DNA from: an uncultured Actinomycetes bacterium
GTDB taxonomy: Bacteria > Actinomycetota > Thermoleophilia > RBG-16-64-13
Assembly (NCBI GenBank): GCA_963814365.1
Contig: CAWFCL010000004.1
Span: forward strand, 1,311,432 to 1,375,431
Length of the DNA: 64,000 nt
Reading direction: 5' to 3'
Below, piece by piece: positions 8,109 through 47,868 of the stretch. Positions within the stretch are counted from its first letter, which is position 1. Each line of letters begins with the position of its first letter. The notes beneath the pieces were generated by a model. That model saw only the letters and a list, made by a program, of their open reading frames with translations, was not told where the DNA came from and did not search any database. Made by a program: the position numbers and the translations under genes.

Positions 8109-8131
8109 CGCCCGTCTTTCCCCCCTTGATG

Positions 8132-14418: not shown

Positions 14419-14847
14419 CTATCCCCGCAGCCGCTCCACCATCTCCGCCACCGTCACCACCTTGAGACCCGGCACTACAGCCTCAAGCAGTCGCCTGTCG
14501 CCAGTCACAATGGTGGTGGCGCCCGCCTGCAGTGCAGTCTCGACGATCGGGTCGTCGTTCGGGTCCGCAGTCCAGCGCTCGCACGCGACAAGAATGGGAG
14601 TTACCTCCATGAAGCCGGCGAGTTCCACAGCCAAGGTTTCACAGATGTCGGAAGCGAAACCGAACTTCACGCTGAGAAGAACGTCCTGAAACTCCCGGAG
14701 GATGTATAGAGAGGTGACTCCTCGGATCCGCCCGACACGTGTGGCCTCAACCGTCTCTGCCGGCTTGCCACCGAACAAGACGGCTGAGAGCAGCACGTTG
14801 GTGTCGAGGACTACCTTCTCAGGAACGCTGCCCACGCGACTCCGCAA
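14419..14847 (-). CDS. vapC: PIN-domain toxin VapC
   Basis: VVLDTNVLLSA ... DPNDDPIVETALQAGATTIVTGDRRLL. The start is probably GTG at 14835; TTG at 14847 is used in the ORF track. It overlaps the vapB stop. Confidence 0.75.
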   Translation of the reverse strand: MRSRVGSVPEKVVLDTNVLLSAVLFGGKPAETVEATRVGRIRGVTSLYILREFQDVLLSVKFGFASDICETLAVELAGFMEVTPILVACERWTADPNDDPIVETALQAGATTIVTGDRRLLEAVVPGLKVVTVAEMVERLRG

Positions 14848-15070
14848 GAGCCCGCTCGATGTCCGCTTCGCTCAGACCTCGCTCGGCCGCTTGTCGCCTG
14901 ACCTCGGCGAGCAACCTCTCCCACCGGGACACGGTCGGCTTCATGATGACCGTCTGGTCACGGACGGCGACGTCCACTTCCGTGTCGGCGCTCAGATCCA
15001 GATCCAAAGCGATCTCCTTGGGTATGGTCACGGTCAGACTGTTGCCGACTTGCCGTACCTTGACTCGCAT
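14819..15070 (-). CDS. vapB: AbrB/MazE/SpoVT-type antitoxin VapB
   Basis: MRVKVRQVGNSLTVTIPKEIALDLDL. ATG at 15070 with an AAGGAGG SD. Confidence 0.75.
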   Translation of the reverse strand: MRVKVRQVGNSLTVTIPKEIALDLDLSADTEVDVAVRDQTVIMKPTVSRWERLLAEVRRQAAERGLSEADIERALAESRGQRS

Positions 15071-15205
15071 ATCGCCTCCTTGATGTATACGCAGTATACA
15101 CCGCGATGCGCCCCAGTGGTTGAGTGCAAGGTCCGCCACGACGCTTCGCAACCCTATCGCGACTAAGCGGGTGCTGTCTCACAACTTGGTATGAGCCAGG
15201 AGAGT

Positions 15206-15300
15206 GCGACTCACTCCCGGCGTGGCCGCATCGCCGGGTCCAACCAACCCCAGAATTTGCCCCAACAAACGGTCAGACTCGCTCCAGAGCCCTCTCCATG
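15206..15300 (+). repeat. Intergenic repeat, copy D
   Basis: Near-full match to the consensus. Its 3' end (GCTCCAGAGCCCTCTCCATG) encodes MERALERV* on the minus strand, identical to the C-terminus of the aminotransferase at copy F. Confidence 0.7.
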
Positions 15301-15348
15301 TCGGGAAGGCTGGATAGCAGAAGCGATCGAACTCCCCGGTAGGCTCGC

Positions 15349-15663
15349 CTACGCCACCTGCAGCGGTCGAATCCGCTCGACCTGATCCCCGATCGACTGC
15401 TCTGCATCCCATAGATCTATGGCACGTTGAGCGTTCAGCCAGAACTCTGGGCTGTTTCCGAACAAACGAGCCAGACGTAATGCCATCTCAGGACTGAGAG
15501 CCCGACGCTCTCTTATCAGCTCGTTGACGGTCTGCCGAGTCACCCCCAAGGCCCCAGCTAGGCCGGCGACAGTCAGGGAGTAGTCGGGCATGAAGTCCTC
15601 TCTCAGCATCTCTCCCGGGTGCGTAGGACGGACCGTTCTGTTCATTGTGTTCGGTATGCTCAT
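15349..15663 (-). CDS. higA: HigA-like XRE-family antitoxin
   Basis: HPGEMLREDFMPDYSLTVAGLAGALGVTRQTVNELIRERRALSPEMALRLARLFGNSPEFWLNAQ. Confidence 0.75.
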   Translation of the reverse strand: MSIPNTMNRTVRPTHPGEMLREDFMPDYSLTVAGLAGALGVTRQTVNELIRERRALSPEMALRLARLFGNSPEFWLNAQRAIDLWDAEQSIGDQVERIRPLQVA

Positions 15664-15676
15664 GTCTCACCGCCCG

Positions 15677-15854
15677 TCAGTGGTAGTCGATGATCTCTAC
15701 GTCGAACGCATCAGTGCCCACGAAACGGAAGCAGATGCGCCACTTTTCGTTGATGGAGGCGCTTCGCACGACGTACGATGTCCGGAGGCAAACGACGCGA
15801 CCGACCAGTCTCGTAGAGACACCGCGTATGCTCGTCGGCGAGCGTCCTTATCAT
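15677..15854 (-). pseudogene. higB: HigB (RelE/ParE-fold killer) remnant with internal deletion and frameshift
   Basis: Minus-strand translation gives MIRTLADEHTRCLYETGRSRRLPPDIVRRAKRLHQ.., then in another frame WRICFRFVGTDAFDVEIIDYH*. The central ~35 residues of a normal ~92-aa HigB are missing. Confidence 0.6.
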
Positions 15855-15971
15855 ATCAAACTGTCACGTGTCATGTTACACCTACCAACTTGCCGCGTGG
15901 CCTCTTCGGGCTCAATGCTCACATCCGTGGTCGATGCGCGAATCAGACTTTGAGTGGAGCCTGCGGCACCC

Positions 15972-16055
15972 CGCGCCCAGACTCACCCCCGGCGTGGCGT
16001 CACGGCCTGTCCAACCAACCCCAGGATTTGCCCAACAGACGGTCAGACTCGCTCC
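15972..16055 (+). repeat. Intergenic repeat, copy E
   Basis: CGCGCCCAGACTCACCCCCGGCGTGGCGTCACGGCCTGTCCAACCAACCCCAGGATTTGCCCAACAGACGGTCAGACTCGCTCC. Confidence 0.7.
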
Positions 16056-16067
16056 GTCACTGGTCTC

Positions 16068-16375
16068 CTAGAACCTTCCGAATAGCCTGCGTACGAAATC
16101 GAGATCGCTGTCGCGTATGCGCTGGTAGATCTCGGCTCTACTGCCCACCTTGACCACTATCACCAGCAGTAGCTCATCCTTGACCGTGTATACGATACGG
16201 TGGACGCCGACCCTGGCCCGATACAGACTGTCGTATCCGCTCAGTTTCTCGCAGCCGTTGGGCGTGGATCGTCGGCCAGCGAATCTATCCTGGCGGCCAC
16301 TTGCACCAGAACGGCACGGTCGAGTCTCCTGAGTTGCCGCTGGGCGGCTGGACTGACCTCGATGCGGTGAGGCAT
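16068..16375 (-). pseudogene. relE: RelE/ParE-family toxin with a 1-bp frameshift
   Basis: N-terminus in one frame (MPHRIEVSPAAQRQLRRLDRAVLVQVAARIDSLADDPRP..). C-terminus in a second frame (..CEKLSGYDSLYRARVGVHRIVYTVKDELLLVIVVKVGSRAEIYQR). Confidence 0.65.
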
Positions 16376-16384
16376 CCCCTGCGA

Positions 16385-16640
16385 CTACAACCCCAGTTCG
16401 GCCTTGAGGTCGTGCCAAGACACAGAGCCACGCCCCTCCAACTCCTTCAGGGCATCGGCGGCATCAGCCAGATCCAGGCGGTCTTCGATGAGCGCGAGGA
16501 TACGCGCTTCGGTCATGGACACGAGAACAGGCAACGTCCTTGCCGTGCCGGGTCAAGCACACCCTCTCCTTGCCATAGGCGACGCGATTGACTATCTCTG
16601 CCAGATCATCGCGGGCTGCGGTCACGGGCATGCTGGTCAT
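16385..16640 (-). pseudogene. yefM: Phd/YefM-family antitoxin with a 1-bp frameshift
   Basis: MTSMPVTAARDDLAEIVNRVAYGKERVCLTRHGKDVA, then in a second frame VLVSMTEARILALIEDRLDLADAADALKELEGRGSVSWHDLKAELGL*. An extra T falls in GCC-T-GTTCTC. Confidence 0.65.
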
Positions 16641-16810
16641 GTGTCGGTTCCTCCGTCGAAGTTCGTGCGCCATCTGGAAGCTACGCAGTGGTTACGTACG
16701 TATTGTACTTCTCGTACGTTACGTACGACAAGGGACGGCACTACTCTCGCACTGGTTCAAGCGGGCCGCTATCCGACTTTGGGTGGTGCTTGGCGGTCTG
16801 GCGAGAGGCC

Positions 16811-16909
16811 CGCGCCTAGACTCACCCCCGGCGTGGCGGCACAGCCCGTCCAACCAACCCCAGGATTCGCCCCGGGAAACCGTCAGACTCGCTCCAGCGC
16901 CCTCTCCAT
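16811..16909 (+). repeat. Intergenic repeat, copy F, overlapping the aminotransferase stop
   Basis: CGCGCCTAGACTCACCCCCGGCGTGGCGGCACAGCCCGTCCAACCAACCCCAGGATTCGCCCCGGGAAACCGTCAGACTCGCTCCAGCGCCCTCTCCAT. Confidence 0.7.
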
Positions 16910-18130
16910 CCGCGTCAACGCCTCCACCAGCGTCACCCGCGGGCAGGCGAAGTTGAGGCGCACGAACCCCTCCCCGCCCTTGCCGAATATGGCGCCGTCG
17001 GCCAAGGCGACCTCTGCCTCTTTCAGGAAGAAGTCCGCGGCGTTCGTGGTGCCGGTGGCGCGTGCGGCCTGTGCGGTGCTCAGGAACTCGCGACAGTCGA
17101 GCCAGGCCAGGTAGGTGCCCTCCAGCGCGGTCATGCTCACGCCCGGCAGTCGGGTGCTGACGAAGTCGAACAGGTAGTCGCGATTGGCCTCCAGGTACGT
17201 GAGCACCGCATCCAGCCAGGGCTGTCCCTCCTGGTAGGCGGCAAGCATGGCCGTGAAGCCCATCACGTCAACGTGCGGCACCAGACCGCGGCCGGTCTTC
17301 TCGAACTGCGTCCGCAGCGCCTCGTCCTCGATGATCGCCACCGAAGCCTTGATACCGGCGATGTTGTAGGTCTTGCTGGGGGCCATGAAGGTGATGGTCC
17401 GCGCCGCGACCTCCGGGGACAGCGAGGCGATAGGCACGTGCTCGTGCCCCGAGAAGACCAGGTCGCAGTGGATCTCGTCGGAGCATATGACCACCCCGCG
17501 AGCGAGACAGATCTCGGCCATGCGGGTCAGCTCGTCCCTGTAGAAGACCCGCCCTGTGGGGTTCTGCGGGTTGCAGAGCAGAAAGATGCGCGTCCGCTCG
17601 GTGATGGCCGCCTCGAAGGCCTCGTAGTCGACCGTGTAGCGGCCGTCGGGGCGGCGCGTCAGCTCCACGGCTTCCATGGTGCAGCCGGAGTTCTCAGGCG
17701 CGTAGAGCATCGGATGGTAGACGGGGGTATGCAGCAGCACACCGTCACCGGGTGCGGTCACGGCGCGGACTGCCTGGTTGAAGCCGGTCACGATGCCTGG
17801 CAGGAAGAGAAACGCTTCGGGAGCGACAGTCCAGCCGTAGAGCCTTTGGAGGCGCTCGACCAGGAGGGGCCGCAGCTCGGGCGGCTCTTGGCCGTAGCCG
17901 AAGATGCCGTGCTCCACGCGGTCGCGCAGGGCGGCGACGACGGGTTCGGGAGCGCGGAAGTCCATGTCGGCGACCCAGAGGGGCAGGGCGTCATCGTAGA
18001 AGCTCCACTTGAGGCTGTCTGAGCCGCGGCGGTCGATGACGCGGTCGAGGTCTGCCGGCGCGGGGGCCTGCGGAGTTGGCGCGGTCGTCGGGCCCGTCGG
18101 GGCGGCCGGAGGCGCTGCCCGCTTGTTCAT
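16883..18130 (-). CDS. PLP-dependent C-S lyase / aminotransferase class I-II (PatB/MalY family)
   Basis: DRRGSDSLKWSFYD ... VADMDFRAPEPV ... SKTYNIAG (PLP lysine). ATG at 18130. The ORF-track upstream extension is low-complexity. Confidence 0.8.
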   Translation of the reverse strand: MNKRAAPPAAPTGPTTAPTPQAPAPADLDRVIDRRGSDSLKWSFYDDALPLWVADMDFRAPEPVVAALRDRVEHGIFGYGQEPPELRPLLVERLQRLYGWTVAPEAFLFLPGIVTGFNQAVRAVTAPGDGVLLHTPVYHPMLYAPENSGCTMEAVELTRRPDGRYTVDYEAFEAAITERTRIFLLCNPQNPTGRVFYRDELTRMAEICLARGVVICSDEIHCDLVFSGHEHVPIASLSPEVAARTITFMAPSKTYNIAGIKASVAIIEDEALRTQFEKTGRGLVPHVDVMGFTAMLAAYQEGQPWLDAVLTYLEANRDYLFDFVSTRLPGVSMTALEGTYLAWLDCREFLSTAQAARATGTTNAADFFLKEAEVALADGAIFGKGGEGFVRLNFACPRVTLVEALTRMERALERV

Positions 18131-18333
18131 CCCGCGTCCACAGTCGTCTGGGTGCTCAAGTGTGTACCTCAAGTCAGATCGGGGCCGTGTCTGCCTACTA
18201 TACGGCACATGACCTGTCGCCGGTCTCAAGCTCGTGGCCGAGTGAGATGCGGGATCTGGAGGAGGTGGTGTGAGCCAGTGGTGTACCCTACTAGCTGACC
18301 GTTTGGCGCGCCGCCCGCAGGCGCGCTCAGGAC

Positions 18334-21300
18334 TTGCTCTCGCGTGAGCAGGGTACCTCTTACCCAAGCGAAGTAAGTTCGAGTACTTGTCACCACAAGG
18401 GGGCCCACATAAAATCGCGATGGTCGATCTCCAACGGACCACGGCAGCAGCCGCAAACCGAAGCTGTCACCGGAGTGACGCTGTCTGAACTCCTGAGTTC
18501 AGACCAGCTGAAGCACCACGCGGCGAAGCTGGCCACGTACCACCCGGTCGATCGAAATGCGGGCGAAGACCGGCTGCTCCCCCGGCTGGCCCAAAACGAG
18601 TCCATCATCGTCCAGGCCTACAGCGTGGTCACACGCGCGGCCTCCGCCGGACAAGCGATCACGCCCGCCGAGACCTGGCTGCTAGACAACTTCTACCTTA
18701 TAGAGCAACAGATAGCTCTGGCCCGCCGCCATCTGCCTCGCGACTACAGCCGCCAATTGCCCCGCCTGAGCGAAGGCCCCTTGGCCGGATATCCCCGCAT
18801 CCACGACCTGGCACTCGACCTGATCGCCCACCAAGACGGCCGCATAGACCGCGATAACACCGGATCGTTCATCGCCTCTTACCAGTCGGTAGAACCCTTA
18901 GAGCTTGGTGAACTGTGGGCCTTCCCCATCATGTTAAGACTGGGTCTGCTCGAGAACATCGGCCGGGTAGCGACCAGGATCGCCCGACGACGCGCAGAGC
19001 GTGATCTCGCGGTCAAGTGGGCGGACCGCCTGCTTGTGACTGCCGAGGAACAACCTAAGCGCCTGATCCACTTGCTGGCCGAGCTAGCTGAGGCTCCTGT
19101 GTCGCTCACCGCCACGTTCGTCGAGGATTTCTATGCCCGCCTCCAAGACCACGGACCTGTGATAGGCGTAGTGCAGGCCTGGCTGGAACATCAGCTTTCG
19201 CAAGAAGGCGTCAGCACCTCAGGGCTTCTGGACATGGCCAGTCGTGCGGCTGCCTCTGATCAGATCTCCATCGCCAATAGCATAGGCAGTCTCCGCTTCA
19301 TCTCAGCCCTCGATTGGGGACAGTTCGTAGAGGATCTTAGTCCGGTGGAGCAACTCCTATCCACCGATCCGGCCGGCGTCTACTCCGCCCAGGACTTCGC
19401 GACCCGCGACCGATACCGGCACGTCGTCGAAGCGGTAGCGCGAGGGACCCAGCAGAACGAGTCAGAAGTGGTCCGCGCTGCCCTTGCTCTCGCCCAGGCT
19501 GCGGCGGACCGGTCGGGTGTCCAAGACCGCACTGCCCACGTGGGCTACTACCTGGTAAGCCGAGGCAGACGCTCCCTCGAGCAGGCAGTCGGCAGCCGGG
19601 TACCACTGCTGACCAGACTGGCTCGAGTGCCCCGCCCTCTGCGTCTCTTCTCGTACGTTGCCCCCATCGTCATCCTTAGTGCCATAGCCGTCGCCCTACC
19701 GATCGCCTACGCAACCGCGCTAGATCGTGCCTATGTCGAGCTCATCTTCTTCACGCTGGTGGGGTTCCTGGCCGCCTCGGCACTGGTAGTGCCCGTAGTC
19801 AACCAGCTTGTCACCGTCATGCTGCCCCCGCGGGTACTACCGCGACTAGACTTCCACGACGGCATCCCCAAGGCTCATCGGACGCTGGTCGTCATCCCCA
19901 CGCTCGTGGGGTCTCCTGATCAGGTGACAGCGCTGCTAGAGGCTCTGGAGGTGCGCTATCTGGGGAACCGCGACCCCAATCTGTTCTTTGCTCTGCTCAC
20001 CGATTTCAATGACGCCTCCGAGCAGAGGCGGCCCGGCGACGACGAGTTACGCGCTCATCTGCGGACCGGCGTCGAGACTCTCAACGAGACCTATGCCGAA
20101 GATGGCCAAGACGTCTTCTACCTGTTCCACAGGCAGCGAGTCTGGAATCCGCGCGACCGCGTGTGGATGGGATACGAGCGAAAGCGCGGCAAGCTCGAGC
20201 AGTTGAACGCTCTGCTGCTCGCCGCCCGTGCGGACGACGAGCGGCCGCAGCCAGAAACCGAGCAGTCTCGGACCAAGGCGGCTCGAGGCGTTCTGTGACA
20301 TCGTCGGCGACCAGTCGCTCCTGGGCTCTATCCGCTATGTCATCACCCTGGACACCGACACCCAGCTGCCCCGCGACACCGCCCGTCTGCTTGGTGGGCA
20401 ACATGGCCCATCCGCTCAATCGACCCGTGTACGACTCCGCACATGGACGGGTCGTGAGGGCTACGCCATCCTGCAGCCCCGAACGTCCATCAGCCTCACC
20501 AGCACCAGCAGTTCCCGCTTCACGCGCCTCTTTGCGGGCGAGGCCGGCATCGACCCGTATACGCGTGAGATATCGGACGTCTACCAGGATCTCTTCGGCG
20601 AAGGCTCGTTCGTGGGCAAGGGCATCTACGACGTGCGAGGCATTCTCCAGGGCTGTCGCCGGGCGCTTTCCCGAGAACCTGATACTCAGCCACGACCTGC
20701 TCGAGGGCTGCTACGCGCGCTCGGCTCTGGTGACCGATGTCGACCTGATCGAAGAGCATCCCATCAGCTACACCATGGACGCCAGCCGCAGACACCGCTG
20801 GACCAGGGGCGACTGGCAACTGGCCGGCTGGCTGCTGCCGCGCGTGCCCGGTCCCGCACGGAAAGCGACAACGCAATCCACTCTCGCTTGCTCTCGATCT
20901 GGAAGCTGTTCGACAATCTGCGCCGCAGCCTGCTGCCGGCCGCGCTTCTTGCGCTGTGGCTGGGAGGATGGTTCTGGCAGCACGGCTACTTCTGGCTGTG
21001 GCCGCTGTCTGGTGGCCGGCGCGTTCTTCGGCCCGGTGATCGATCGCGGGACTGATCGACCTGGTGCGAAAGCCGGCTGAGCGCAGGTGGCTGCTGCACT
21101 TCGAACCTGACGGCCAAGTCCTTGGCTCGACCACTGTCTGCGCGCCTTGCTCGGGCTGGTCTTCTTGCCTTACGACGCACTGATCTATCTGGGCGCCATC
21201 TTCCGCGCGATGACGAGCCTGCTCATCACGCGGCGAGGGCTGCTGCTGTGGCAGTTGCCCTCGTACAAGCGGCGAAACTCCCGCAGCACCCCGCTGGAGG

Positions 21301-24300
21301 TTCTACGCTGGAGATGTGGGTGGCCCCCTTCTTGGCGCTCGCGCTTGGCGTCGCGCTCGTCTTCTGGCCTCGCCTCCCGTTGGCCGAGTGGCCCTTCGTC
21401 GCCCCCTTCGTCTTGCTCTGGCTCGCCAGCCCCCTGGTCGGCTGGTGGATAAGCAGGCCTCTGCGGGCACCATCCGCCGAGCTGGGCGAGACACCAGCGA
21501 GTGTTCCTGCGGGCGATGGCCCGACGCACCTGGAGGTTCTTCACCGATTTCGTCGGTCCGGCCGACAACTGGTTGCCTCCCGACAACTACCAGGAATATC
21601 CGGCCGCGGTGGTCGCCCATCGCACCTCGCCCACCAACATGGGCATGGCCTTGCTCGCGAACCTGGCGGCACACGACTTCGGCTACATCTGCACAGGCGA
21701 ACTGCTGCGTCGCACCGAGCGCGCTCTACGTACCATGGAGAAGCTTGAGCGTTTCCACGGGCACTTTCTCAACTGGTACGACACCCAGACCCTGGCGCTC
21801 TGCACCCTGAGTACATCTCGGCAGTAGATAGCGGCAATCTCGCCGCAAGCCTTCTGGCACTCAGGGCGGGTCTGCTGGAACTGAAGCAGCAGCCGCTGCT
21901 CCGCCGCAGGCCTTCCAGGGCATCGAGGACACCTTGCTGCAGCTGGCCGCGCACGACACCGCCTCCCCGACCCCGGACCTCCAGAGTCACATCGCCGCGT
22001 CTGCGGGAGCCACTGCGCTCTGCACGATGGCCACCCCGAGCACGCCGACGGTGCGGCGCTGCGAGTATCGCAAGCGGCGCAGTCGCTACTGCAGAAGCTC
22101 TGCATGGACAGCAGGGACCTTCTGGACGCGCTCCCGCCCGATGCCGACCAGGAGCTCAAGTACTGGGCCAGAGCGCTCAACCGACAGTGCCGCAGGTACT
22201 GTGACGATCTGCGCTCGGTGTTGCCCGAGCCAGAACGGTTCCTCACCATGCCCACCCTGGAGCAAGTGGCTCACCCGGAGCGCATGCAGGACCATCGACT
22301 GCCCTGGCCGCCCGCTGCCAAGATCTGGCGACATGGACTTCGCCTCGTCTACGATCACGTCGCGGCAACTGCTCAACATCGGCTATGACCTGGGTGAGCG
22401 CCGTCGCGATCCTTCTTGGTACGACATGCTGGCTTCTGAGGCCCGCCTTACCAGCTACCTGCTCATCGCGCAGGGCCAGGTGCCCCAGAAGCACTGGTTC
22501 GCCCTGGGCCGTCTGCTGACCAGCCGCGGAGGCGACCTCAGCCTGATGTCGTGGAGCGGCTCCATGTTCGAGTACCTCATGCCGCTGCTCTTCTTGCCAA
22601 GCTACGAGAACACCCTGCTGGACCAGGCCTGCCGGGCCGCCATCGCGCGCCAGATCGACTACGCACACCAACGCCACGTGCCCTGGGGGATCTCCGAGTC
22701 GTGCTACAACGCGGTGGACATGAACCAGGTCTACCAGTACCGGGCCTTCGGCGTGCCCGGGTTGGGCTTCAAGACCGGCCTGGCGGACGATCTGGTCATC
22801 GCCCCCTACGCGAGCGCCTTGGCCCTGACCGTCGTCCCCCGCGAGGCCTGCCGCAACCTGCAGGCCCTCAGCAACGCTGGACTCTCGGGGCGACTACGGC
22901 ATGTACGAAGCCGTCGACTACACACCGTCCCGGCTGCTTCCGGACTCCGACCACGCTGTGGTTCGCAACTTCATGGCGCACCACCAAGGCATGAGCTTCT
23001 TGGCGATCGCCCACGCACTGCTCGGACCGGCCCACCCAGCGCCGGTTCACCTCCGACCCGCAGGTGCAGACGGCCGACATGCTGCTGCAGGAGCGCATAC
23101 CCAAGCAGACCGTCACCATCCTGCCACGCACCTCCCAGATGGAAGCGGGGCGGCCCTCGGCCGACCGAGGCGGCCGCCGTACAAAGGGTGATGACCGACC
23201 CCGACACGCCGCTCCCCGAGGTGCATCTGCTGTCCAACGGCAACTACCACGTCATGGCCACCCAGGCCGGAGGCGGTTACAGCCGCTGGCGCGACCTGGC
23301 CGTCACTCGCTGGCGCGAAGACGCCACCTGCGACAACTACGGTACCTTCATCTACCTGCGCGATCCTGGACACAGGGCAGTACTGGTCCACCGCCTACCA
23401 GCCGACGCGCAAGCAAGCCCGACCGCTACGAGGCGGTCTTTGTCCAGGCACGCGCCGAGTACCGCAGACGCGACCACAAGATCGATTCACACACCGAGGT
23501 CTGCGTCTCTCCCGAGGACGACGTCGAGATCCGCCGCGTCACCCTCACCAACCATCTCCGACAGTGACGCGCGAGATAGAGGTCACCAGCTATGCCGAAG
23601 TGGTCATGGCACCCTTGGATGCCGACCTTGCCCATCGTGCGTTCAGCAACCTCTTCGTATCCACCGAGATACTGCCCGAGCACAAGGCCATACTCTGCCG
23701 ACCGGCGTCCTCGCTCACCGGGCGAAGAGACCCCCTGGATGCTGCACATGCTGTCGGTGTCCTGACTCGCTGGAGCACCCGACCTCGTACGAGACCGACC
23801 GTGCGCGAGTTCTTGGGCCGAGGCAGAACGGCCGCGGATCCGGTCGCGATGGAGACAGACCTGTCCAACACCGCAGGGTCCGGTGCTCGACCCGATAGTG
23901 GCCATACGCACCAGACTCGACGCTGGCACCGGACGAATCGCAGTCGGTGCGTACTGATCCGGGCATGGCCGAGACCCGCGAGGCCGCCTTGGCCATGATC
24001 GCCAAGTACCACGACCGCCACTTCATCGAGCGCGCCTTCGAGATGGCCTGGTTCGAGAGTCAGGAACTGCTTCGCCTGCTCGGTATCACCGAAGCGGACG
24101 CCCAGACCTACGGCCACATGGCCACGTCGGTCATTCATGCGAGCGCTCTGCGTCGCTCTTCCCCCGGCGTCATCGCCCGCAACCAGCTCGGCCAACCCGG
24201 GCTCTGGCGCTTCGGCATCTCGGGCGACCTGCCCATCGTGCTGGTCAAGATATGGCGACTCCAGCCGCATCGACCTCGTGAGACAAGCGCTAAGGGCACA

Positions 24301-27108
24301 CGCTTACTGGCGCAAGAAGGGGCTGGCGACCGACCTGCTCATCTTGAACGAGGACTACTCCGGATACCGCGCGGCCCTTCAGGACGAGATCATGGGTCTG
24401 ATAGGAGCGGGACCCGAAGCCTCCCCTGCTCGACAGGCCAGGTGGCGTCTTCGTCCGACGCTCGGAGGAACTCTCCGAAGAGGACCGGGTGCTGTTTCAG
24501 ACCGTCGCCCGTGTCGTGCTCACCGGCTCAACAGAGAATCGCTGGCCGAACCTGCGCAGCGCCGCTCGACGTCCGACCGCGCGCCCGCCTCTGCTGCAAC
24601 CTTCGCGTCGCCCGCGAGAGAGGAAGATCGAGCCCCTGCCGACACGCGAGAGCATCTTCCCCAGCGGTCTGGGCGGCTTCACTCCCGACGGCCGCGAGTA
24701 CGTCATCAGCATGGAGCCCGGTCAGAGCACTCCCGCGCCGTGGACCAACGTCATAGCCAGGCGAGCACATCGGTACCGTGGTCAGCGAGAAGGGCAGCGC
24801 GTATACCTGGGTGGAGAACGCCCACGAGTTCCGTCTGACGACTTTCCAGAACGACCCGGTGAGCGACAGCGGCGGCGAAGCCGTATACCTGCGGGACGAC
24901 GAGACAGGCGCCTACTGGTCACCCACCCCCCTGCCCTGTCCGGGTGAGTCCGGATATGTATGCCGGCACGGGTTCGGATACAGCGTGTTCGAGCACTACG
25001 AAGCGGGCATCTTCTCCGAGCTCACCACCTACGTAGCCGATGGACGCACCCGTGAAGTTCGTCACCGTCAAGTTGTCCAACCGCTCGGGTCGCACCCGCC
25101 GCCTTTCGCTGGCGGCCTACTGGGAGTTGGTGCTCGGCGAATGGCGGCACACCAACTTGATGCACATCGTGACCGAGAAGGACCCGGAGACCGGCGCGCT
25201 GTTCGCCCGCAACGCCTACTCCCGCAGGACCCCGGGCAGGGTCGTGTTCGCCCAGGTCAGTGAGCCCAAACGCAGCGTCACCGGCAGCCGCATGGAATTC
25301 ATCGGGACGCAACGGCTCGCCGTCCGACCCGGCCGCGATGCGTCTCGCGCATCTCTCGGGCAAGACGGGCGCGGGCACTCGATCCCTGCGCCGCCATACA
25401 GACCCCGATCGAGCTGAGCGACGGAGAGGAACGTGAGGTCGTCCTGATCTTGGGGGCCGCCGACAACGCCGACGAGGCCCGCCGCCTTTGCATGAGACTT
25501 TGGAGGTCCGCTCGGCGCACGGCGAGCTCTGGAAGAGGTGTGGCTACACTGGAACCGTCTGCTGGGCACCGTGTACGTCGAGACCCCGGACCGCGGACTC
25601 GATGTGCTCGCCAACGGCTGGCTGGTCTACCAGACACTCTCGTCCCGCTTCTGGGGACGCAGCGGCTACTACCAGTCGGGCGGCGCCTACGGTTTCCGCG
25701 ATCAACTGCAGGACAGCGTCGCCCTGCTCTTCACGACCCCGCAACTCACACGCCAGCACCTGCTACGGTGCGCCGAGCGCCAGTTCCGCGAGGGTGACGT
25801 ACAGCACTGGTGGCACCCCCCGACGGGGCACGGTGTGCGCTCGCACTCCTCCGACGACTATCTCTGGCTGCCGTACGCCACCTGTCACTACGTGAACGCC
25901 ACCGGGGACACCGGCGTACTGGACGAGATGGTGCCCGTTCGTCGAGGGCCGAGAGGTCGCTGAGCAAGAAGAGGCCTACTACGACCAACCTCAGCGCTCG
26001 AGCCGAGGTCGCGACCCTCTATGACCACTGCGTGCTGGCCATCAAACACGGCCTGCGTTTCGGCCGCCACGGTCTGCCGCTCATGGGCTCCGGGGACTGG
26101 AACGATGGCATGAACCTGGTCGGCGCCGGGGGCAAGGGTGAGAGTGTGTGGCTGGCCTGGTTCTTGCTGGAGAACCTGCGCCTCTTCGCGAAGCTGGCCA
26201 AGAGCCACGGAGACGACGACTTCGCCCAGGTCTGCGCGAGCCACGCCGAGGAGCTGCGTGCCAACACCGAAGCGCACGCTTGGGACGGCGAGTGGTATCG
26301 CCGCGCCTACTTCGACGACGACACACCCCTGGGCTCGTCGACCAACGACGAATGCCGCATCGACTCCATCAGCCAGAGTTGGGCGATCCTATCCGGGGCA
26401 GGCGACCCGAAGCATGCCCGCGCCGCCATGAAGGCGGTGGACGAGCTGCTGGTAGATCGGACCGCGGGGCTGGTCAAGCTCCTGGATCCACCCTTTGACA
26501 AGTCGGACATGGAGCCCGGCTACATCAAGGGCTACCTTCCCGGGGTGCGCGAGAACGGCGGTCAATACACGCACGCCGCAGTGTGGGCGGCCATGGCCTT
26601 CGCTCTGGTGGGCGAGACGGAGAAGGCCTGGGAGCTGTTCCGGATGCTGAGCCCCATGAGCCACGCCGGCGACCCGGCGGCTGCCGACGTCTACAAGGTC
26701 GAGCCGTACGTGATGGCCGCCGACATCTACAGCACGGCGCCGCACACGGGTCGTGGAGGCTGGACCTGGTACACAGGCGCCGCCGGTTGGATGTACCGGC
26801 TGGCGGTGGAGACGCTGCTGGGACTGCATCTGGAGGTGGACAGGCTACGTCTGGAGCCCCGAGTGCCCAAGACCTGGGACTCGTACAAGGTCTACTACCG
26901 ATATCGCGAGACCCACTACGCGATAGCGTTCAGGCGGACCGGCGCAGGGACCGCCCCAGGGGCCGCCGGCCGCAACGCTGCCGGTGCCGAACCCATCACC
27001 CGAGTCGTCGTGGACGGCGTCGCTGTGCAGGTGAGCCCCAAGAACGAGGGTATAGTCCCCTTGGTCGACGACCGCCGTGACCACCGAGTAGAAGTCGATT
27101 TCGGCTGA
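18334..27108 (+). pseudogene. ndvB: Cyclic beta-1,2-glucan synthase (NdvB/ChvB-like, GT84 + GH94), heavily frameshifted
   Basis: Homology can be followed through at least 15 ORF fragments that alternate among all three + frames. These include ERKRGKLEQLNALLL, VITLDTDTQLPRD, MAHPLNRPVYDSAHGRVVRGYAILQPR, HDLLEGCYARSALVTDVDLIEEHP, SYLLIAQGQVPQKHWFALGRLLTSRGGDLSLMSWSGSMFEYLMP and the GH94 C-terminus GSGDWNDGMN..WLAWFLLENL ... WTWYTGAAGWMYR. Confidence 0.7.
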
Positions 27109-27124
27109 CGCTGCCGATGCCCGT

Positions 27125-27152
27125 CGCGGGGCTCCAGAAGGAGCCCCGGCGT
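27125..27152. terminator. Bidirectional hairpin terminator between convergent genes
   Basis: Perfect inverted repeat CGGGGCTCC-AGAA-GGAGCCCCG between the ndvB stop (27108) and the aldo-keto reductase stop (27154). Confidence 0.4.
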
Positions 27153-27153
27153 C

Positions 27154-28083
27154 CTACCCCGCCGGCACCGCCTCCATCTCCTCCGCTGACAGCTGCCAGG
27201 CACCTCCGGCCTGCGCGTTAGCGAGTATCTGCTCGGGAGTCGTGGCCCCGGCGATGACCGAGGCCACGCCTTCCTGCGAGAGCAACCAGCCGAATGCCAG
27301 CTCCAGCAGGCTGTGCCCCGCCTCCTGGGCAAACGCGGCCAACTCGCGTACGCGGGCGAGCTTATCCGCGGTGGCTAGGTTGCTGAATTGCGGCAGCGTG
27401 GCCAGCCGGGAGCCCTGGGGCAATTCCGCGCCGTGCCGGTACTTGCCCGTCAGCAGACCAGATTCCAGCGGAAAATAGGGCACGATGCCCAGTCCGTGCT
27501 TGCGGAGCTCGGGGACCATCTCAGCCTCCACCTCGCGAAAGAGGAGGTTCCAATGGATCTGGTCGGCCACGAACCCAGAGAAGTCAAGCCTACCGGCGAC
27601 CGTCACCGCCTGCTCGACGAGCGCCGTGTCGTAGTTGGAGCACGCGATGTGGATCACCTTGCCCGACGCCTGCAGCTCTAAGAGCGTCTCCAGGGCCTCC
27701 TCCACAGGGGCCTCCGGGTCCGGATGATGCTGGTAGTAGAGGTCGATGCGATCGGTGCCCAGCCTGCCCAGGCTGATGTCACACCCCTCCAGTATGCGCT
27801 TGCGCAGTACGCCCGGCCGATACGCCTCGCCCTGAGGCCGGTCTTGGAACTTGGTGGCCACCACCACCGACTCCCGCCTACTGCCCAGGGCCTTACCCAA
27901 GAACACCTCCGACTGCCCGCCTCCGTACATCTCGGCGGTGTCAAAGTGGGTGATGCCGGCATCGAGGGCAGCGTGAACCACCTCAGTGGTCTGACGCTGG
28001 TCCAACTTCCAGCCGAAGTTATTGCACCCCAGTCCGACTACGGATACCTGCGGTCCGGCACTGCCTAGTCTGCGCATCTGCAT
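27154..28083 (-). CDS. Aldo/keto reductase
   Basis: MQMRRLGSAGPQVSVVGLGCNNFG ... HFDTAEMYGGGQSE. Confidence 0.85.
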   Translation of the reverse strand: MQMRRLGSAGPQVSVVGLGCNNFGWKLDQRQTTEVVHAALDAGITHFDTAEMYGGGQSEVFLGKALGSRRESVVVATKFQDRPQGEAYRPGVLRKRILEGCDISLGRLGTDRIDLYYQHHPDPEAPVEEALETLLELQASGKVIHIACSNYDTALVEQAVTVAGRLDFSGFVADQIHWNLLFREVEAEMVPELRKHGLGIVPYFPLESGLLTGKYRHGAELPQGSRLATLPQFSNLATADKLARVRELAAFAQEAGHSLLELAFGWLLSQEGVASVIAGATTPEQILANAQAGGAWQLSAEEMEAVPAG

Positions 28084-29363
28084 GGTGACCTCCGTGGCCG
28101 GTGGGTTGCTTGTCACGCGATAGATACCGCGAGGTCGAGCGGGCTAACCGGCCACCGGGTCGACGGACTCGAGACAGCCCCATGGTCAGCCATAGAGTAA
28201 GACCAAAGGCCGCAAAACCTATCATCAGGACACCTACGAACTCCACCCGCTCCCACACGTCGAGAGAGACCACGGCGGCAGCGACACCACCAAGGATCAT
28301 GCTCGTCGCAAGTATGATCCCCGATACCGAGCCCGCGTCGGCGTCGTGCTGACCCAGCATCAGATAGGTCGATGGGGGTCTCATGCAGGCCAAGCTCACC
28401 GCTGCAGGCAGAAAGGTGAGTATGAACGGCCACGGACCCCGTCTGCCCACAAAGAGCACCAACACGCCGCTCACCAGGATCGAAGCCAAGCAGCCCGTTA
28501 GAATACTGGTGCGCTGGAATCGACGCGACAACAGCATAAAGGTGGGAGCACCGACCGCGATACCGGCGCCGAACAGGGCGAAGAAATAGCTGTAGGTCTG
28601 GCTGCTCAGCCCGAAAGTGACCTCGTAGATGTACGAAGAGGACGCTATGAAGGCCATGCCTGCCATGCCCACCACCGAGAAGATAGTGATCAGAAGGACG
28701 AAATCTCTGTTCTTAATAACCACACCCAACCGCTTCAGCGAGGCCAAGGGATTGCCTGTCAGTCGCTGCGTCAGGGTCTCGGTGTAGAGCAGCGAGCCGA
28801 CGAGGATCGACCGAACCCCATATCCCCTGCGCTACGAAAGCGCCTCGCCACGAAGTGAACCTGAGTATCAGTCCGCCCAGGATAGGAGCCAGTAGCGGGG
28901 CGAGCACGGTCATCGACTGCACCAACGCCAGAGTGGTCTCACGTTTTCGCCCTTCGTAGGAATCCTTGACCACCGCCGTCGCCACAGTGCCGGCCGCTGC
29001 CGCCCCTATCGCCTGCAGCGCCCTAAAGGCCATAAGCTGGAAGACGTTCTGCGACACGGCACACAGGGCACCTGCCAGCGCATAGCACGCCATACCTACG
29101 AGCAGCACGGGCTTGCGGCCAAACCTATCGCTGAACGGACCCCAGAACAGCAAAGCGACTGCGTAGAAGACGAAGAAGAGAGTCAGGGTCAGGTTGGTCT
29201 GGTAGGCCGGGACCCCGAAGTAGGCAGTCATCTTGGGTAAAGCGGGAAGATACAGATCGGTGGAAAAGGCAGGAAAGGCGCTCAGCGCGGCCAACAGAAA
29301 CACCAGCCCAGCTCGTCCCAGATGCTTCTGTTGTACTGTCGTCCCGTCTGTCATCTGACTCAC
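28019..29363 (-). pseudogene. MFS transporter (Bcr/CflA-like), frameshifted paralog of 33926..35137
   Basis: N-terminal half (ORF 28713..29363) and C-terminal half (ORF 28019..28747) each align to the intact paralog at 33926..35137. They lie in different frames, and the break is near 28750-28800. Confidence 0.6.
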
Positions 29364-31083: not shown

Positions 31084-33118
31084 GTGATGGCACAGATATG
31101 GATCAACAACGTCTCGGTAAGTCTCGGCTCGCCGCTGCTGCTCGATGGGGCGTCGCTCGCCATCGAGGCGGGTGAGCGCATCGGGCTACTAGGCCGCAAC
31201 GGGGCCGGCAAGTCCACTCTGCTCAGGATGCTGCAGTGGCCACATCCGTCCGGATTCGGGCGAGATAGTCATGGGCGCCGGAGTCCGCGTCGGCCTGCTG
31301 CCGCAGGAGGTCCCCGAAGCTCTGCCGGGCACGGTGTACGACATAGTCGCCTCCGGCGGCCAGGGACACCTCGACCTGCTGCAGCGCTACCACCAACTGA
31401 CGTGCGCATGGGCCAGGGGCACGAGCCCGGCCTGATGAAGAAGCTGGAGCAGGTGCAACATCAGCTGGAGACGTCCGGGGCCTGGCACTTCCACCAGCGG
31501 GTGGAACAGGTTGATCGCGTGGGCTGGTCTGGACGAGGATGCTGAGTTCGGGCTGCTCTCCGCGGGCCTGAAGCGCCGGGTGCTCTTGGCCAAGGCCCTG
31601 GCCGACGAGCCCGATGTGCTCTTGCTGGACGAACCGACCAACCACCTGGATATCGACGCCATCCTCTGGCTGGAGGACTTCCTGCTGAGGTTCGCCGGCA
31701 CGCTGGTGTTCGTCACCCACGACCGCGCCTTTCTGCAGCGCATCGCCACCCGGATCGTGGAGATCGACCGCGGACACCTGCTCGCCTTCGACTGCGGCTA
31801 TGCCACCTACCTGGAGCGCCGGCAGCAGATGCTGGACTCGGAGGAGAAGGCCTGGCACGACTTCGACAAGAAGCTGGCTCAGGAGGAGGTCTGGATAAGG
31901 CAGGGCATCAAGGCTCGGCGCACCCGCAACGAGGGCAGAGTGCGGGCCCTGGAGCAGCTGCGGGTGGAGCGCGCCCTGAGACGGGAGCGCATGGGTAACG
32001 CGCAGATAGCGATAGTGGAGGCCAGCCGCAGCGGACGGCTGGTGGCCGAAGCCAAAGATGTCTCGTTCACCTACGACGCAGGGCCCGCTGACAGACCCGA
32101 CGGCGGCCGTGAGGCCGCGCGCGAGCCGGCGCAGCCCGGCGCGGCGTCCCCGACGCCCGCTAAGCCCATCGTGGACGACTTCAGCACGGCGATCATCCGC
32201 GGCGACAGGGTGGGCATCCTGGGCCCCAACGGCTCGGGCAAGACCACTCTGCTCAAGCTCCTGTTGGGAGAGTTGGAGCCCCAGAAGGGCCGGGTGCGCC
32301 TGGGGGCCAATCTGCGGATAGCCTACTTCGACCAACTGCGCGCCCAGCTGGACGACGACCGCACCCTGCGCGAGAGCGTGGGCGGTGGAGGCGACAGCGT
32401 CACGGTGCAGGGCAAGTCGCGACACGTGGTGGGATATCTGCAGGACTGGCTGTTCTCCCCCGACCAGATCAAGGCCCCCGTGCGCCTGCTCTCCGGTGGC
32501 GAGCGTAACCGCCTACTGCTGGCCAAGCTCTTCGCGGTGCCGTCGAACGTCCTGGTACTGGACGAACCCACCAACGACCTAGACAGCGAGACCCTCGCGC
32601 TCCTGGAGGAGCGCCTGCTGACCTACACTGGCACCATCCTTCTGGTAAGTCACGACCGGGCTTTCTTGAACAACGTGGTCACGTCGACGCTGGTCTTCGA
32701 GAGCGACGGCCGCCTGCGCGAATACGTAGGCGGATACGACGACTGGCTGCGCCAGCGCAAAGCGCGCGTGGCGGCGTCCGGGGCGCGCGGAGCGCGTGGT
32801 GGGGCGGCCGACACAGGCGCAAGACCGGCGGCGGCGCAAGCGACGCCGCTCGCAGAGGGGGCGCCGACCGCCGGCCTCCCGCGCGCCAAACGCAAGCTCT
32901 CATACAAAGAGACCAAAGAGCTGGAGACGCTGCCCCAGAGGATCGAGGCGCTGGAGCGCGAGCGGGACGAGTTGGGCGCCACGCTGAGCTCGTCGGAGTT
33001 CTATGCCGGCAACGACTCAGGCCAGGTGGCGACTACCAACGCGCGGTTGGCGGCGGTGGAGGCAGAGTTGGGCGCTGCATTCGCGCGCTGGGAGGAGCTG
33101 GAGGGGTTGGGCGGCTAG
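31084..33118 (+). pseudogene. uup: ABC-F ATPase Uup-like, with three frameshifts in the first ~450 bp
   Basis: First Walker A (GRNGAGKST) at the N-terminus. Homology then hops frames at about 31245, 31400 and 31515 (..DSGEIVMGAGVRVGLLPQEVPEALPGTVYDIV.. and ..KKLEQVQHQLETSGAWHF.. lie in different frames). From 31511 a clean 535-aa ORF carries the second ABC cassette and a coiled-coil tail. Confidence 0.7.
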
Positions 33119-33134
33119 CGGCGCGGTCGCAAGA

Positions 33135-46789: not shown

Positions 46790-47868
46790 CAGCCATTGGC
46801 ATGGTGGCGCCATGAACGTCGAGGCAAGACCTACGGAACCACCGGCGGTGGCGACAAGGTCGACGAGTACACGCTGACCACGGGCCACGGCATCGTCGCC
46901 AAGATGATCTCCTACGGCGCCACTCTCACCTGGCTCGAGACTCCCGACCGCCACGGAGACACGCGCCAACCTAGTCCTGGCTCACGCGAACCTCAAGGAC
47001 TACGAGAGACAGCGCGCACTTCTTTGGCGCGACCGTGGGCAGGTATGCCAACCGCATCGCCGGGCGCGTCTTCACGCTAGACGGAGCACACCTACACACT
47101 CGCCCGCAACGAAGCGACCGAACCACCTGCACGGCGGAGTACTAGGCTTCGACAAGACGCGTCTGGCGGGCGGCAGCCTTCGAGACCGGTGACTCGGCCG
47201 GCGTGACCTTCGCTTACACCAGCCTCGACGGAGAAGAGGGCTATCCCGGCACACTGGAGGCCGAGGTCACTTACCGCCTGACGGTGGACGGACGATTGCA
47301 TGTCACGTACTCAGCCGTCACGGACGTGGCCACCCACGTGAACCTGACCAATCACTCGTACTTCAATCTTGCAGGACACTCTTCGGGCGACGTGCTTGCG
47401 CAAGAACTGGAGCTGGACTGCGACGGCTTCTTGCCCGTGGACGACAGCCTGATCCCCACCGGCGAGATGGCCTCCGTCGACGGCACGCCCATGGACTTCC
47501 GCCACTCCAAGCCGATAGGCCGGGACATCGCCGGCCGCGAGAGCGGGTACGGCGAACTCTACGACGTTTGTCTGGTGGTCTGTCCGACAGGCTCCGACCC
47601 TTAGACCGATAGCCCGGGCGTTCGATCCGTGCCTCTGGACGACACCTGGAGATACTCGGTACTCAGCCCGGCATACAGCTCTATACAGGCAACCATTTCC
47701 ATGACGTGTCCGGGCATCGACGGCGCCGTGTACCAGAAGCACCAAGGCTTCGCCCTAGAGACCCAGCACTTCCCAGACTCTCCCAACCAGCCCGCTTTTC
47801 CGTCCACCCTCCTCCGACCCGGCGAGCACTACTTCGAAGAGACCGTGTACGAGTTCTGGGCGCGCTGA
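46790..47868 (+). pseudogene. galM: Aldose 1-epimerase (GalM), multiply frameshifted
   Basis: GalM-like segments in three frames: GGDKVDEYTLTTGHGIVAKMISYGATLTWLETPD; TFAYTSLDGEEGYPGTLEAEVTYRL ... NLTNHSYFNLAG ... IPTGEMASVDGTPMDFR; YQKHQGFALETQHFPDSPNQPAFPSTLLRPGEHY. Confidence 0.6.

What the first reader, a model, noticed from the sequence alone, without database searches (positions are those of the whole stretch)
18334..27108. Full-length but shattered ~8.8-kb NdvB-like cyclic glucan synthase gene
Homology to cyclic beta-1,2-glucan synthase runs continuously across 8.8 kb but switches frame at least 15 times. No segment is deleted. Flanking genes (aminotransferase, AKR) are intact. That many frameshifts without any large deletion is odd for an old pseudogene. 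It suggests either very recent relaxed selection with a high indel rate, or a locally poor consensus.
Basis: seen in the sequence. Interest (0 to 1): 0.55.

Follow-up and report, generated by a model that had tools for sequence, protein, structure and literature searches.

The report
Glucan synthase gene shattered by consensus errors
A complete 8.8-kb cyclic beta-1,2-glucan synthase gene looks broken by about 43 single-base insertions, but the evidence says these are errors of a long-read metagenome consensus and not biological decay, so the gene is most likely intact in the organism.

Summary
Window 18334-27108 (+) encodes a full-length Cgs/NdvB-type cyclic beta-1,2-glucan synthase. Its frame changes 41-43 times, not about 15. 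All changes lie in one 5.7-kb patch (about 20283-26001), and 34-37 of them are single extra bases outside homopolymers.

After frame correction there are no in-frame stops. The protein aligns in one stretch to Agrobacterium Cgs (8RF9/8RF0). It keeps 599 of 601 columns invariant in 51 intact orthologs. dN/dS is 0.13, the same as the intact ends, and there is no lineage-specific acceleration. That rules out an old pseudogene and ordinary relaxed selection.

The same +1-dominated, stop-free shattering of this gene occurs in four other Flye-named ENA metagenome contigs, one of them gammaproteobacterial. Illumina MAGs and most Nanopore MAGs of the clade carry an intact gene.

Inserted bases are often the allele that relatives carry at the adjacent site (25/39 against 13 expected; replicated in L083). 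This points to a consensus built from mixed reads that keeps both alleles of a SNP.

Smaller patches of +1 shifts hit three other genes in the window.

Verdict: assembly or polishing artefact, low interest. Read mapping would settle it.

The parts
18334..27108 (+). Complete Cgs/NdvB-type cyclic beta-1,2-glucan synthase coding region (2907 codons after frame correction).
   Evidence: The frame-corrected translation matches A. tumefaciens Cgs 8RF9/8RF0 in one stretch (query 82-2851, 1964 bits). It also matches the Cgs cyclization domain 8WY1 and GH94 phosphorylases. Identity to intact L001 is 84.6%.
18334..20283 (+). N-terminal part with no frame change (inside ORF 18334-20298, 654 aa, identical to public protein P0001).
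   Evidence: All 156 invariant columns are kept. dN/dS is 0.138.
20283..26001 (+). Shattered patch with 41-43 frame changes.

Positions of the '+1' events (L001 reference): 20290, 20390, 20636, 20859, 20887, 21008, 21042, 21103, 21137, 21491, 22000, 22028, 22290, 22300, 22331, 22356, 22888, 23024, 23163, 23365, 23414, 23553, 23566, 23702, 23757, 23809, 23873, 23919, 24253, 24425, 24593, 24759, 25039, 25304, 25374, 25495, 25934, 26001.

Positions of the '+2' (-1) events: 20455, 21295, 21796, 21903, 24535.
   Evidence: plus the reference-free path. There are 0 in-frame stops. 599 of 601 invariant columns are kept. dN/dS is 0.129. 30 of 39 clean insertions are not part of any homopolymer run.
26002..27108 (+). 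C-terminal GH94 part with no frame change (inside ORF 25810-27108).
   Evidence: Pfam Glyco_hydro_94, E = 6e-87. No frame change. 117 of 120 invariant columns are kept.
16883..18442 (-). Intact class I/II aminotransferase gene (upstream neighbour).
   Evidence: Pfam Aminotran_1_2 covers profile positions 11-359 of 361.
27154..28116 (-). Intact aldo-keto reductase gene (downstream neighbour).
   Evidence: Pfam Aldo_ket_red covers profile positions 2-286 of 291.
28019..29363 (-). MFS transporter split into two ORFs by one extra base near 28810.
   Evidence: MFS_1 profile positions 5-160 and 196-345 fall in different ORFs. The window spans 544 nt where intact L004:6720-7923 spans 543 nt. flags position 28808.
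31087..33118 (+). ABC-F ATPase with 3-4 frame changes in its first 440 nt (at about 31234-31237, 31403-31434 and 31513-31522), intact after that.
   Evidence: Three-frame translation and peptide coordinates. Pfam.
46850..47868 (+). Aldose 1-epimerase whose frame advances by +1 eight times between 46963 and 47716.

Best explanation
The gene is a normal, functional-looking cyclic beta-1,2-glucan synthase. Its deposited sequence carries a 5.7-kb stretch of consensus errors.

The contig most likely comes from a long-read-only (Nanopore, metaFlye plus Medaka style) metagenome assembly.

In the conserved central part of this long gene, the reads used for the consensus were probably not from one genome. 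They were a mixture of co-occurring strains, or of homologous genes from related, unassembled community members. At some polymorphic sites the consensus kept both alleles as two successive bases. Each such case adds one base and shifts the frame by +1.

Shown here: the lesions are almost purely single-base insertions; the coding information is intact; the pattern recurs in other contigs of the same kind.

Inferred: the sequencing platform of this contig, and the mixed-read mechanism.
For: (1) Indel-only damage. There are 41-43 frame changes, 34-37 of them +1, and no in-frame stop in 2907 codons.

(2) No decay.
- dN/dS is 0.129 in the patch, against 0.138 and 0.175 in the intact ends.
- 599 of 601 columns invariant in 51 intact orthologs are retained.
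- Relative-rate tests show 48-66 window-private against 81-97 L001-private amino-acid changes in the patch. The same holds at third codon positions, with a ratio of 0.73-0.91 in the patch against 1.2-1.7 in the N-terminal flank.
- The corrected protein aligns continuously to solved Cgs structures.

(3) Not gene-specific decay. Further patches of successive +1 shifts occur in ABC-F, aldose epimerase and MFS genes of the same window.

(4) Tied to a pipeline, not a lineage.
- Four other ENA contigs with Flye-style names, from analyses ERZ25039477, ERZ25039527, ERZ25039489 and ERZ25039549, have the same gene shattered: 23, 28, 67 and 17 frame changes, 70-90% of them +1, with 0-1 stops.
- One of them is 88% identical to a gammaproteobacterial ortholog.
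- Short-read MAGs and most Nanopore MAGs of the same clade carry one intact ORF of about 2900 aa; 51 of 80 loci are intact.
- The nearest relatives come from the Microflora Danica long-read project, which used Flye --meta --nano-hq and one round of Medaka, with no short-read polishing.

(5) Stacked-allele signature.
- In 25 of 39 clean insertions, the inserted base is an allele that relatives carry at the immediately adjacent site. Random positions give 13.1 +/- 2.9 (P < 0.001). Fixed positions with permuted bases give 19.4 +/- 2.6 (P = 0.02). Shifted positions give 12-19.
- The result is replicated in L083 (44 of 65 against 31.9 +/- 4.0, P = 0.001), with the same direction in L084.
- The polymorphic neighbours are mostly third codon positions (15, 6 and 5 for positions 3, 1 and 2).

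(6) The insertions avoid homopolymers: 30 of 39 are in runs of length 1.

(7) Frame-change sites coincide between independent contigs more than chance. Window against L083 gives 12 within +/-1 codon, against 2.9 expected. This is expected if the same variable codon positions are error-prone.
Against: - No reads or coverage data are available, so the artefact is inferred and not observed.
- The source record of the window could not be retrieved, so its platform and pipeline are inferred from relatives.
- The stacked-allele enrichment is moderate (z about 3-4). It explains about two thirds of events at most. The codon phase of the insertions is uniform (14/12/13), which does not by itself favour third-position stacking.
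- The C-terminal 1.1 kb is as conserved at the nucleotide level as the patch, yet is clean. Conservation alone therefore does not set the patch boundary.
- The published error mode of Nanopore consensus is homopolymer indels (PMC9262707), not non-homopolymer insertions. The specific mechanism is my inference.
- DnaE (1343-5758), also a conserved gene, is intact.
Confidence: 0.9

Rival explanations
1. Artefact, but from locally very low read depth. A stretch of the draft was supported by only one to three reads and stayed essentially unpolished. No mixed haplotypes are involved.
For: The patch length (5.7 kb) is on the scale of a single read. Contigs L081 and L082 have split genes all along them (P-type ATPase, RNase II, RecQ-like), as expected for contigs of low depth overall. 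Near-finished Nanopore consensus needs about 40-fold coverage (PMC9262707). The codon phase of the insertions is uniform.
Against: Random read noise would not make inserted bases match neighbouring alleles. It would not give coincident sites between independent contigs. It would not confine damage to this gene in three contigs with clean flanks. Raw-read noise should also add substitutions and deletions, yet only 2 of 601 invariant residues differ and deletions are about one sixth of insertions.
Confidence: 0.25
2. A real and very recent pseudogene. The gene was inactivated and then picked up dozens of true insertion mutations under relaxed selection.
For: The frames are broken in the deposited sequence. 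Immediate neighbours are intact. Cyclic glucan synthesis is dispensable in many lifestyles (general knowledge).
Against: 43 indels come with no nonsense codon, no rise in dN/dS and no excess of private substitutions. Known spontaneous mutation spectra are dominated by substitutions, and indels concentrate in homopolymers, whereas these insertions avoid homopolymers. Bacterial pseudogenes are biased towards deletion (general knowledge), but here insertions outnumber deletions about 6 to 1. The same pattern occurs in unrelated genes of the window and in contigs from another phylum within one assembly series.
Confidence: 0.04
3. Real insertions that are bypassed during expression by programmed recoding or deletional RNA editing, so that a functional enzyme is still made.
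For: Perfect preservation of the coding information despite 43 frame breaks. Recurrence in several contigs with partial site coincidence.
Against: There is no conserved motif or slippery sequence around the sites; only a weak preference for inserted G (18 of 39). Most sites differ between contigs. Close relatives from the same project and short-read MAGs have uninterrupted genes. No such system is known in bacteria (general knowledge). The phenomenon follows the assembly series across phyla.
Confidence: 0.01

Closest known systems
Cyclic beta-1,2-glucan synthase Cgs / NdvB / ChvB (A. tumefaciens, PDB 8RF0, 8RF9; Brucella Cgs)
   Same: The frame-corrected product (2907 aa) aligns over residues 82-2851 to chain residues 41-2786 of 8RF9 in a single stretch (1964 bits). 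It also contains the cyclization (8WY1-like) and C-terminal GH94 phosphorylase regions. Its length matches the 2896-2975-aa orthologs.
   Different: The host is an uncultured actinobacterial lineage (closest: MAGs labelled Actinomycetes, Gaiellales, Thermoleophilia), not a proteobacterium. As deposited, the reading frame is interrupted 41-43 times. No NCBIfam model matches.
Frameshift (indel) errors of long-read-only assemblies and MAGs (IDEEL-type gene truncation; tools such as proovframe)
   Same: Broken ORFs with preserved homology, absence of nonsense substitutions, occurrence in Flye/Medaka-type contigs, and correction by reference-guided frame repair (PMC9262707; PMC12313526).
   Different: The classical error is a deletion or insertion in long homopolymers spread over the genome. 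Here the errors are non-homopolymer single-base insertions at about 1 per 133 nt, clustered in sharply bounded patches inside conserved genes, with a stacked-allele signature.
Collapsed-strain consensus in strain-oblivious metagenome assembly (as described for Flye in the Strainberry paper, PMC8302730)
   Same: Similar haplotypes are merged into one consensus that matches none of them exactly. The window's patch shows a shortened private branch and inserted bases equal to neighbouring alleles.
   Different: That paper does not describe +1 insertions at SNP sites. The link to this mechanism is my inference from sequence patterns.
Genuine decaying pseudogenes of reduced genomes (for example Mycobacterium leprae)
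   Same: Multiple frame disruptions in a recognisable gene.
   Different: True pseudogenes accumulate substitutions, stop codons and deletions, and dN/dS approaches 1 (general knowledge). None of this is seen here.

Membership tests
Cgs/NdvB cyclic beta-1,2-glucan synthase | Full multi-domain architecture in one polypeptide of about 2800-3000 aa: N-terminal membrane region with glycosyltransferase, central cyclization domain, C-terminal GH94 phosphorylase. | tested here: met
   The frame-corrected translation aligns end to end with 8RF9/8RF0. It also hits 8WY1 and GH94 cellobiose phosphorylases. Pfam finds GH94 supersandwich, GH94 catalytic and Glycoamylase domains.
Cgs/NdvB cyclic beta-1,2-glucan synthase | Conservation of family-invariant residues (a proxy for catalytic and structural residues). 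| tested here: met
   872 of 877 columns invariant across 51 intact orthologs are kept: 156/156, 599/601 and 117/120 by region. Individual catalytic residues were not mapped by number.
Cgs/NdvB cyclic beta-1,2-glucan synthase | One uninterrupted reading frame in the genome. | tested here: not met
   The deposited sequence has 41-43 frame changes. I attribute this to sequence error, which cannot be verified without reads.
Cgs/NdvB cyclic beta-1,2-glucan synthase | Synthesis of cyclic beta-1,2-glucan. | not testable with these tools
   Needs biochemistry on a corrected or re-sequenced gene.
True (biological) pseudogene | Relaxed selection: dN/dS rising towards 1, and excess lineage-specific substitutions. 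| tested here: not met
   dN/dS is 0.129 in the patch against 0.138 and 0.175 in the intact ends. Private changes are fewer than in the intact sister.
True (biological) pseudogene | Nonsense mutations and deletions alongside frameshifts. | tested here: not met
   There are 0 in-frame stops. 2889 of 2908 residues are aligned. Insertions outnumber deletions by about 6 to 1.
True (biological) pseudogene | Lesions present in the DNA of the organism (read-level support). | not testable with these tools
   No reads are available, and the source record could not be retrieved.
Long-read consensus artefact | The same lesion type in unrelated genes and unrelated taxa of the same assembly type, and absent from short-read assemblies of relatives. 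| tested here: met
   ABC-F, aldose epimerase and MFS genes in the window. Contigs L081-L084, including a gammaproteobacterial one. Intact genes in short-read MAGs such as L002 and L007.
Long-read consensus artefact | Errors track read heterogeneity: inserted base equals the alternative allele of the adjacent site. | tested here: met
   25 of 39 against 13.1 expected. Controls. Replicated in L083, 44 of 65 against 31.9. The effect size is moderate.
Long-read consensus artefact | Abnormal depth or mixed haplotypes in the read pile over the patch. | not testable with these tools
   Requires the raw reads of the source sample.

The most novel reading that the evidence does not exclude
The extra bases are truly in the DNA. 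The gene still makes a functional synthase because transcripts or ribosomes skip them. That would be a bacterial recoding or deletional editing system acting at dozens of sites in one gene. A weaker version is a real, insertion-specific mutational burst targeted to certain genes.
Probability: 0.015. Interest if true: 0.95.

Novelty: not a real feature. Interest (0 to 1): 0.1.

Why it matters
Biologically it hardly matters. The organism most likely has an ordinary, intact cyclic beta-1,2-glucan synthase.

Practically it is a caution. In long-read-only soil MAGs, long conserved genes can carry bounded patches with about 1 false insertion per 130 nt while neighbouring genes look perfect. Annotation pipelines will then report pseudogenes or many gene fragments. 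The public protein collection already holds such fragments, for example P0001 and P0124. Gene-loss or genome-decay inferences from these MAGs would be wrong.

The pattern offers a read-free way to recognise this error class: +1 bias, no stops, normal dN/dS, and inserted base equal to a neighbouring allele.

Tried and rejected
- Shared frameshifts as evidence of ancestry or recoding. Protein P0125 resembled the window ORF even across out-of-frame junk. Nucleotide-level mapping showed the two contigs shift at nearby but different bases (L001 coordinates 4524 against 4541, and 4802 against 4815). Most events are not shared with L081, L082 or L084. Only L083 shows clear excess coincidence, at variable codon positions and often with different offsets.
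- Homopolymer slippage. Rejected, because 30 of 39 insertions are in runs of length 1.
- Methylation-motif errors. A Dcm-type methylase with Vsr lies at 9957-11665, but no common motif surrounds the sites.
- Codon-phase test for third-position stacking. Uninformative (14/12/13).
- Whole-window poor quality. Rejected. DnaE (1471 aa) and ORFs of 880, 876 and 655 aa are intact.
- The short-ORF region at 11.6-17 kb looked like another shattered patch in the GC3 plot. It holds genuine small genes instead (PIN, ParE, DUF3800).
- Retrieving the source contig via P0001 and P0124 failed.
- NCBIfam gave no hit for the corrected protein.
- Synteny with L001 is only loose, with L001's neighbours lying at 33.1-38.9 kb in the window. 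It gave no evidence for or against a chimeric join.


Full report
**What is there**

The + strand between 18334 and 27108 holds a string of overlapping ORF fragments: 654, 305, 208, 654, 269... 432 aa. Several of them carry pieces of the domains of a cyclic beta-1,2-glucan synthase (GH94 supersandwich, GH94 catalytic, Glycoamylase). The N-terminal fragment's relatives are annotated as cyclic beta-1,2-glucan synthetase. The closest genomes are uncultured Actinomycetes, Gaiellales and Thermoleophilia MAGs. The nearest is L001 (MFD04716.bin.1.302). It carries one uninterrupted 2908-aa ORF, as do 51 of the 80 loci fetched.

**Checking the observation**

I aligned the L001 protein to window 18200-27200 with a dynamic programme that allows codon matches, codon gaps and 1- or 2-nt frame slips.
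- The alignment runs from 18337 to 27105. It covers 2889 of 2908 residues at 84.6% identity and contains no in-frame stop.
- It needs 43 frame changes: 37 of +1 nt and 6 of +2 nt (which equals -1).
- Two other references, L002 (a SPAdes short-read MAG) and L008, give 41 changes at the same places.
- A reference-free Viterbi path on codon usage also rotates frame about 27 times here and rarely elsewhere.
- All changes lie between about 20283 and 26001. The first 1.95 kb and the last 1.1 kb of the gene have none.
- A nucleotide alignment to the L001 gene shows that most events are clean single-base insertions in otherwise conserved sequence, for example GTGATC[G]ATCGCG and CGCAAG[C]AAGCCC.
- 30 of 39 are outside any homopolymer.
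- The broken frames are in the public record. ORFs 18334-20298 and 21934-23898 are identical to proteins P0001 and P0124, both on a 1,617,670-bp contig held by NCBI and ENA. The record itself could not be fetched.

**Is it a decaying gene?**

No sign of decay was found.
- dN/dS against L001 is 0.129 in the shattered part, 0.138 in the intact N-terminal part and 0.175 in the intact C-terminal part.
- Amino-acid identity is higher in the shattered part (86%) than in the ends (81-82%).
- With five outgroups, the window lineage has 48-66 private amino-acid changes in the patch against 81-97 for the intact L001. Third codon positions behave the same way.
- Of 601 alignment columns in the patch that are invariant in 51 intact orthologs, the corrected translation keeps 599. 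One of the two exceptions sits at a frame junction.
- The corrected protein aligns in a single stretch (residues 82-2851) to the cryo-EM structures of Agrobacterium Cgs (8RF9, 8RF0). It also matches the Cgs cyclization domain (8WY1) and GH94 phosphorylases.
- Forty-odd indels with no nonsense codon and no excess substitution do not fit the spontaneous mutation spectra I know of (general knowledge). Such spectra are substitution-rich, with indels concentrated in homopolymers and pseudogenes biased towards deletion.

**Is it specific to this gene?**

Only locally. The two immediate neighbours are intact (aminotransferase 16883-18442, aldo-keto reductase 27154-28116). Long genes elsewhere are also intact (DnaE, 1471 aa). 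Three other genes show the same lesion type:
- An MFS transporter has one extra base near 28810.
- An ABC-F ATPase changes frame three to four times between 31234 and 31522.
- An aldose 1-epimerase advances by +1 eight times in a row between 46963 and 47716.

The contig therefore carries several bounded patches of +1 insertions. The glucan synthase gene holds the largest.

**Elsewhere**

Fragments similar to the window's ORFs led to four ENA metagenome contigs with Flye-style names (analyses ERZ25039477, ERZ25039527, ERZ25039489 and ERZ25039549).

| Contig | Frame changes in the same gene |
|---|---|
| L081 | 23 |
| L082 | 28 |
| L083 | 67 (60 are +1) |
| L084 | 17 (13 are +1) |

- At most one in-frame stop occurs in any of them.
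- In L083 and L084 the flanking genes look whole. In L081 and L082 other genes are split too.
- L084 is 88% identical to a gammaproteobacterial ortholog. The phenomenon therefore follows the assembly series and not a lineage.
- The fragment-based search selects for broken copies, so their frequency is not informative.
- The nearest relatives belong to the Microflora Danica long-read project. It used Guppy super-accurate basecalling, Flye --meta --nano-hq and one round of Medaka, with no short-read polishing (PMC12313526).
- Frameshift errors are a known weakness of Nanopore-only MAGs below about 40-fold coverage (PMC9262707).
- That the window itself comes from such a pipeline is an inference.

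**Mechanism**

An apparent shared frameshift with P0125 turned out to be two nearby but distinct events. Most sites are not shared with L081, L082 or L084. Window and L083 do coincide more than chance: 12 events within one codon against 2.9 expected. These coincidences sit at variable codon positions.

I then tested whether the inserted base is the allele that relatives carry at the adjacent site.
- This holds for 25 of 39 insertions.
- Random positions give 13.1 +/- 2.9. Fixed positions with permuted bases give 19.4 +/- 2.6. Shifted positions give 12-19.
- The polymorphic neighbours are mainly third codon positions.
- The test replicates in L083 (44 of 65 against 31.9 +/- 4.0) and points the same way in L084.

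This is what one expects if the consensus was computed from a heterogeneous read pile and sometimes kept both alleles of a SNP as two bases. The pile could come from collapsed strains, which Flye is known to merge (PMC8302730). It could also come from reads of homologous genes of unassembled relatives that map onto the conserved part of this long gene.

This mechanism accounts for:
- the +1 bias;
- the confinement of patches to conserved genes;
- the preserved coding signal;
- the slightly shortened private branch in the patch;
- the hot-spot coincidences.

It is an inference with limits:
- The enrichment is moderate.
- The codon phase of the insertions is uniform.
- The equally conserved C-terminal 1.1 kb is clean.
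- A plain local drop in depth remains a possible contributor. By itself it does not explain the allele matching.

**Comparison with known things**

The gene is a member of the Cgs/NdvB family by architecture and conserved residues. It fails only the 'one open frame' criterion, which I attribute to sequence error. The lesion pattern belongs to long-read consensus artefacts. It differs from the textbook homopolymer indels in being non-homopolymer, insertion-biased and patchy. It does not meet the criteria of a biological pseudogene (dN/dS, stops, deletions).

**Verdict**

The 'poor consensus' alternative is supported at about 0.9 confidence, and the 'relaxed selection' alternative is not. The most novel reading not excluded is real insertions bypassed by recoding or editing, at about 1-2%. 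Read mapping over 15-30 kb would settle the matter. Interest is low, apart from a practical warning for pseudogene and gene-loss inference from long-read soil MAGs.

Noticed in passing
window 46850-47868 (+): The aldose 1-epimerase gene advances its reading frame by +1 eight times in succession between 46963 and 47716. This is the same lesion type and density as in the glucan synthase patch.
   Followed up: partly
window 31087-31600 (+): The N-terminus of the ABC-F ATPase changes frame at about 31234-31237, 31403-31434 and 31513-31522. The rest of the gene (31511-33118) is intact.
   Followed up: partly
window 28019-29363 (-): An MFS transporter is split by one extra base near 28810. An intact paralog lies at 33926-35137 (-), and an intact ortholog at L004:6720-7923.
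   Followed up: partly
window 5715-11665 (-): A lower-GC island (54-60% against about 64%) carries a Dcm-type C5 cytosine methylase (10403-11665), a Vsr mismatch endonuclease (9957-10559), an HNH protein (8132-9085) and an 824-aa AAA ATPase protein (5715-8189). It looks like a mobile restriction-modification or defence island.
   Followed up: no
window 13269-16418: A cluster of small genes: DUF3800 (13269-14051), PIN toxin (14419-14847, -) and ParE-like toxin (16068-16418, -). In the GC3 plot this region first looked like another shattered patch but is not. L001:898-1950 has homologs of window 15341-16658.
   Followed up: partly
window 33072-38951 versus L001: The genes flanking the synthase in L001 (L001:8992-9657 upstream; 18714-20144 and 20857-21316 downstream) lie in the window at 33072-33737, 36510-37940 and 38492-38951. 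That is 6-11 kb downstream of the synthase, so the neighbourhood is rearranged between the two relatives.
   Followed up: no
window 26320-26413 (+): Three residues that are invariant in 51 orthologs are substituted within about 100 nt of the otherwise clean GH94 part (FDDG to FDDD, VIS to ILS, RAR to HAR). They may be real lineage changes or substitution errors.
   Followed up: partly
window 1343-5758 (+): The DnaE-type DNA polymerase III alpha is 1471 aa. About 230 residues lie between the finger domain (ends at residue 968) and the HHH_6 domain (starts at residue 1198) without a Pfam match. This may be an insertion.
   Followed up: no
L081 7248-9955 and 10233-11522; L082 15212-17470; L083 17663-19431: Related Flye-named contigs have other genes split in two: P-type ATPase, RNase II, a RecQ-like helicase and a PLD-type enzyme. 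Frameshift errors are therefore common in that assembly series.
   Followed up: no
protein search outputs: Every hit listed was 1145 aa or shorter, although intact orthologs are about 2900 aa (one 2995-aa cluster member appeared only). The search listing therefore favours fragments, which biases any estimate of how often this gene is broken.
   Followed up: no
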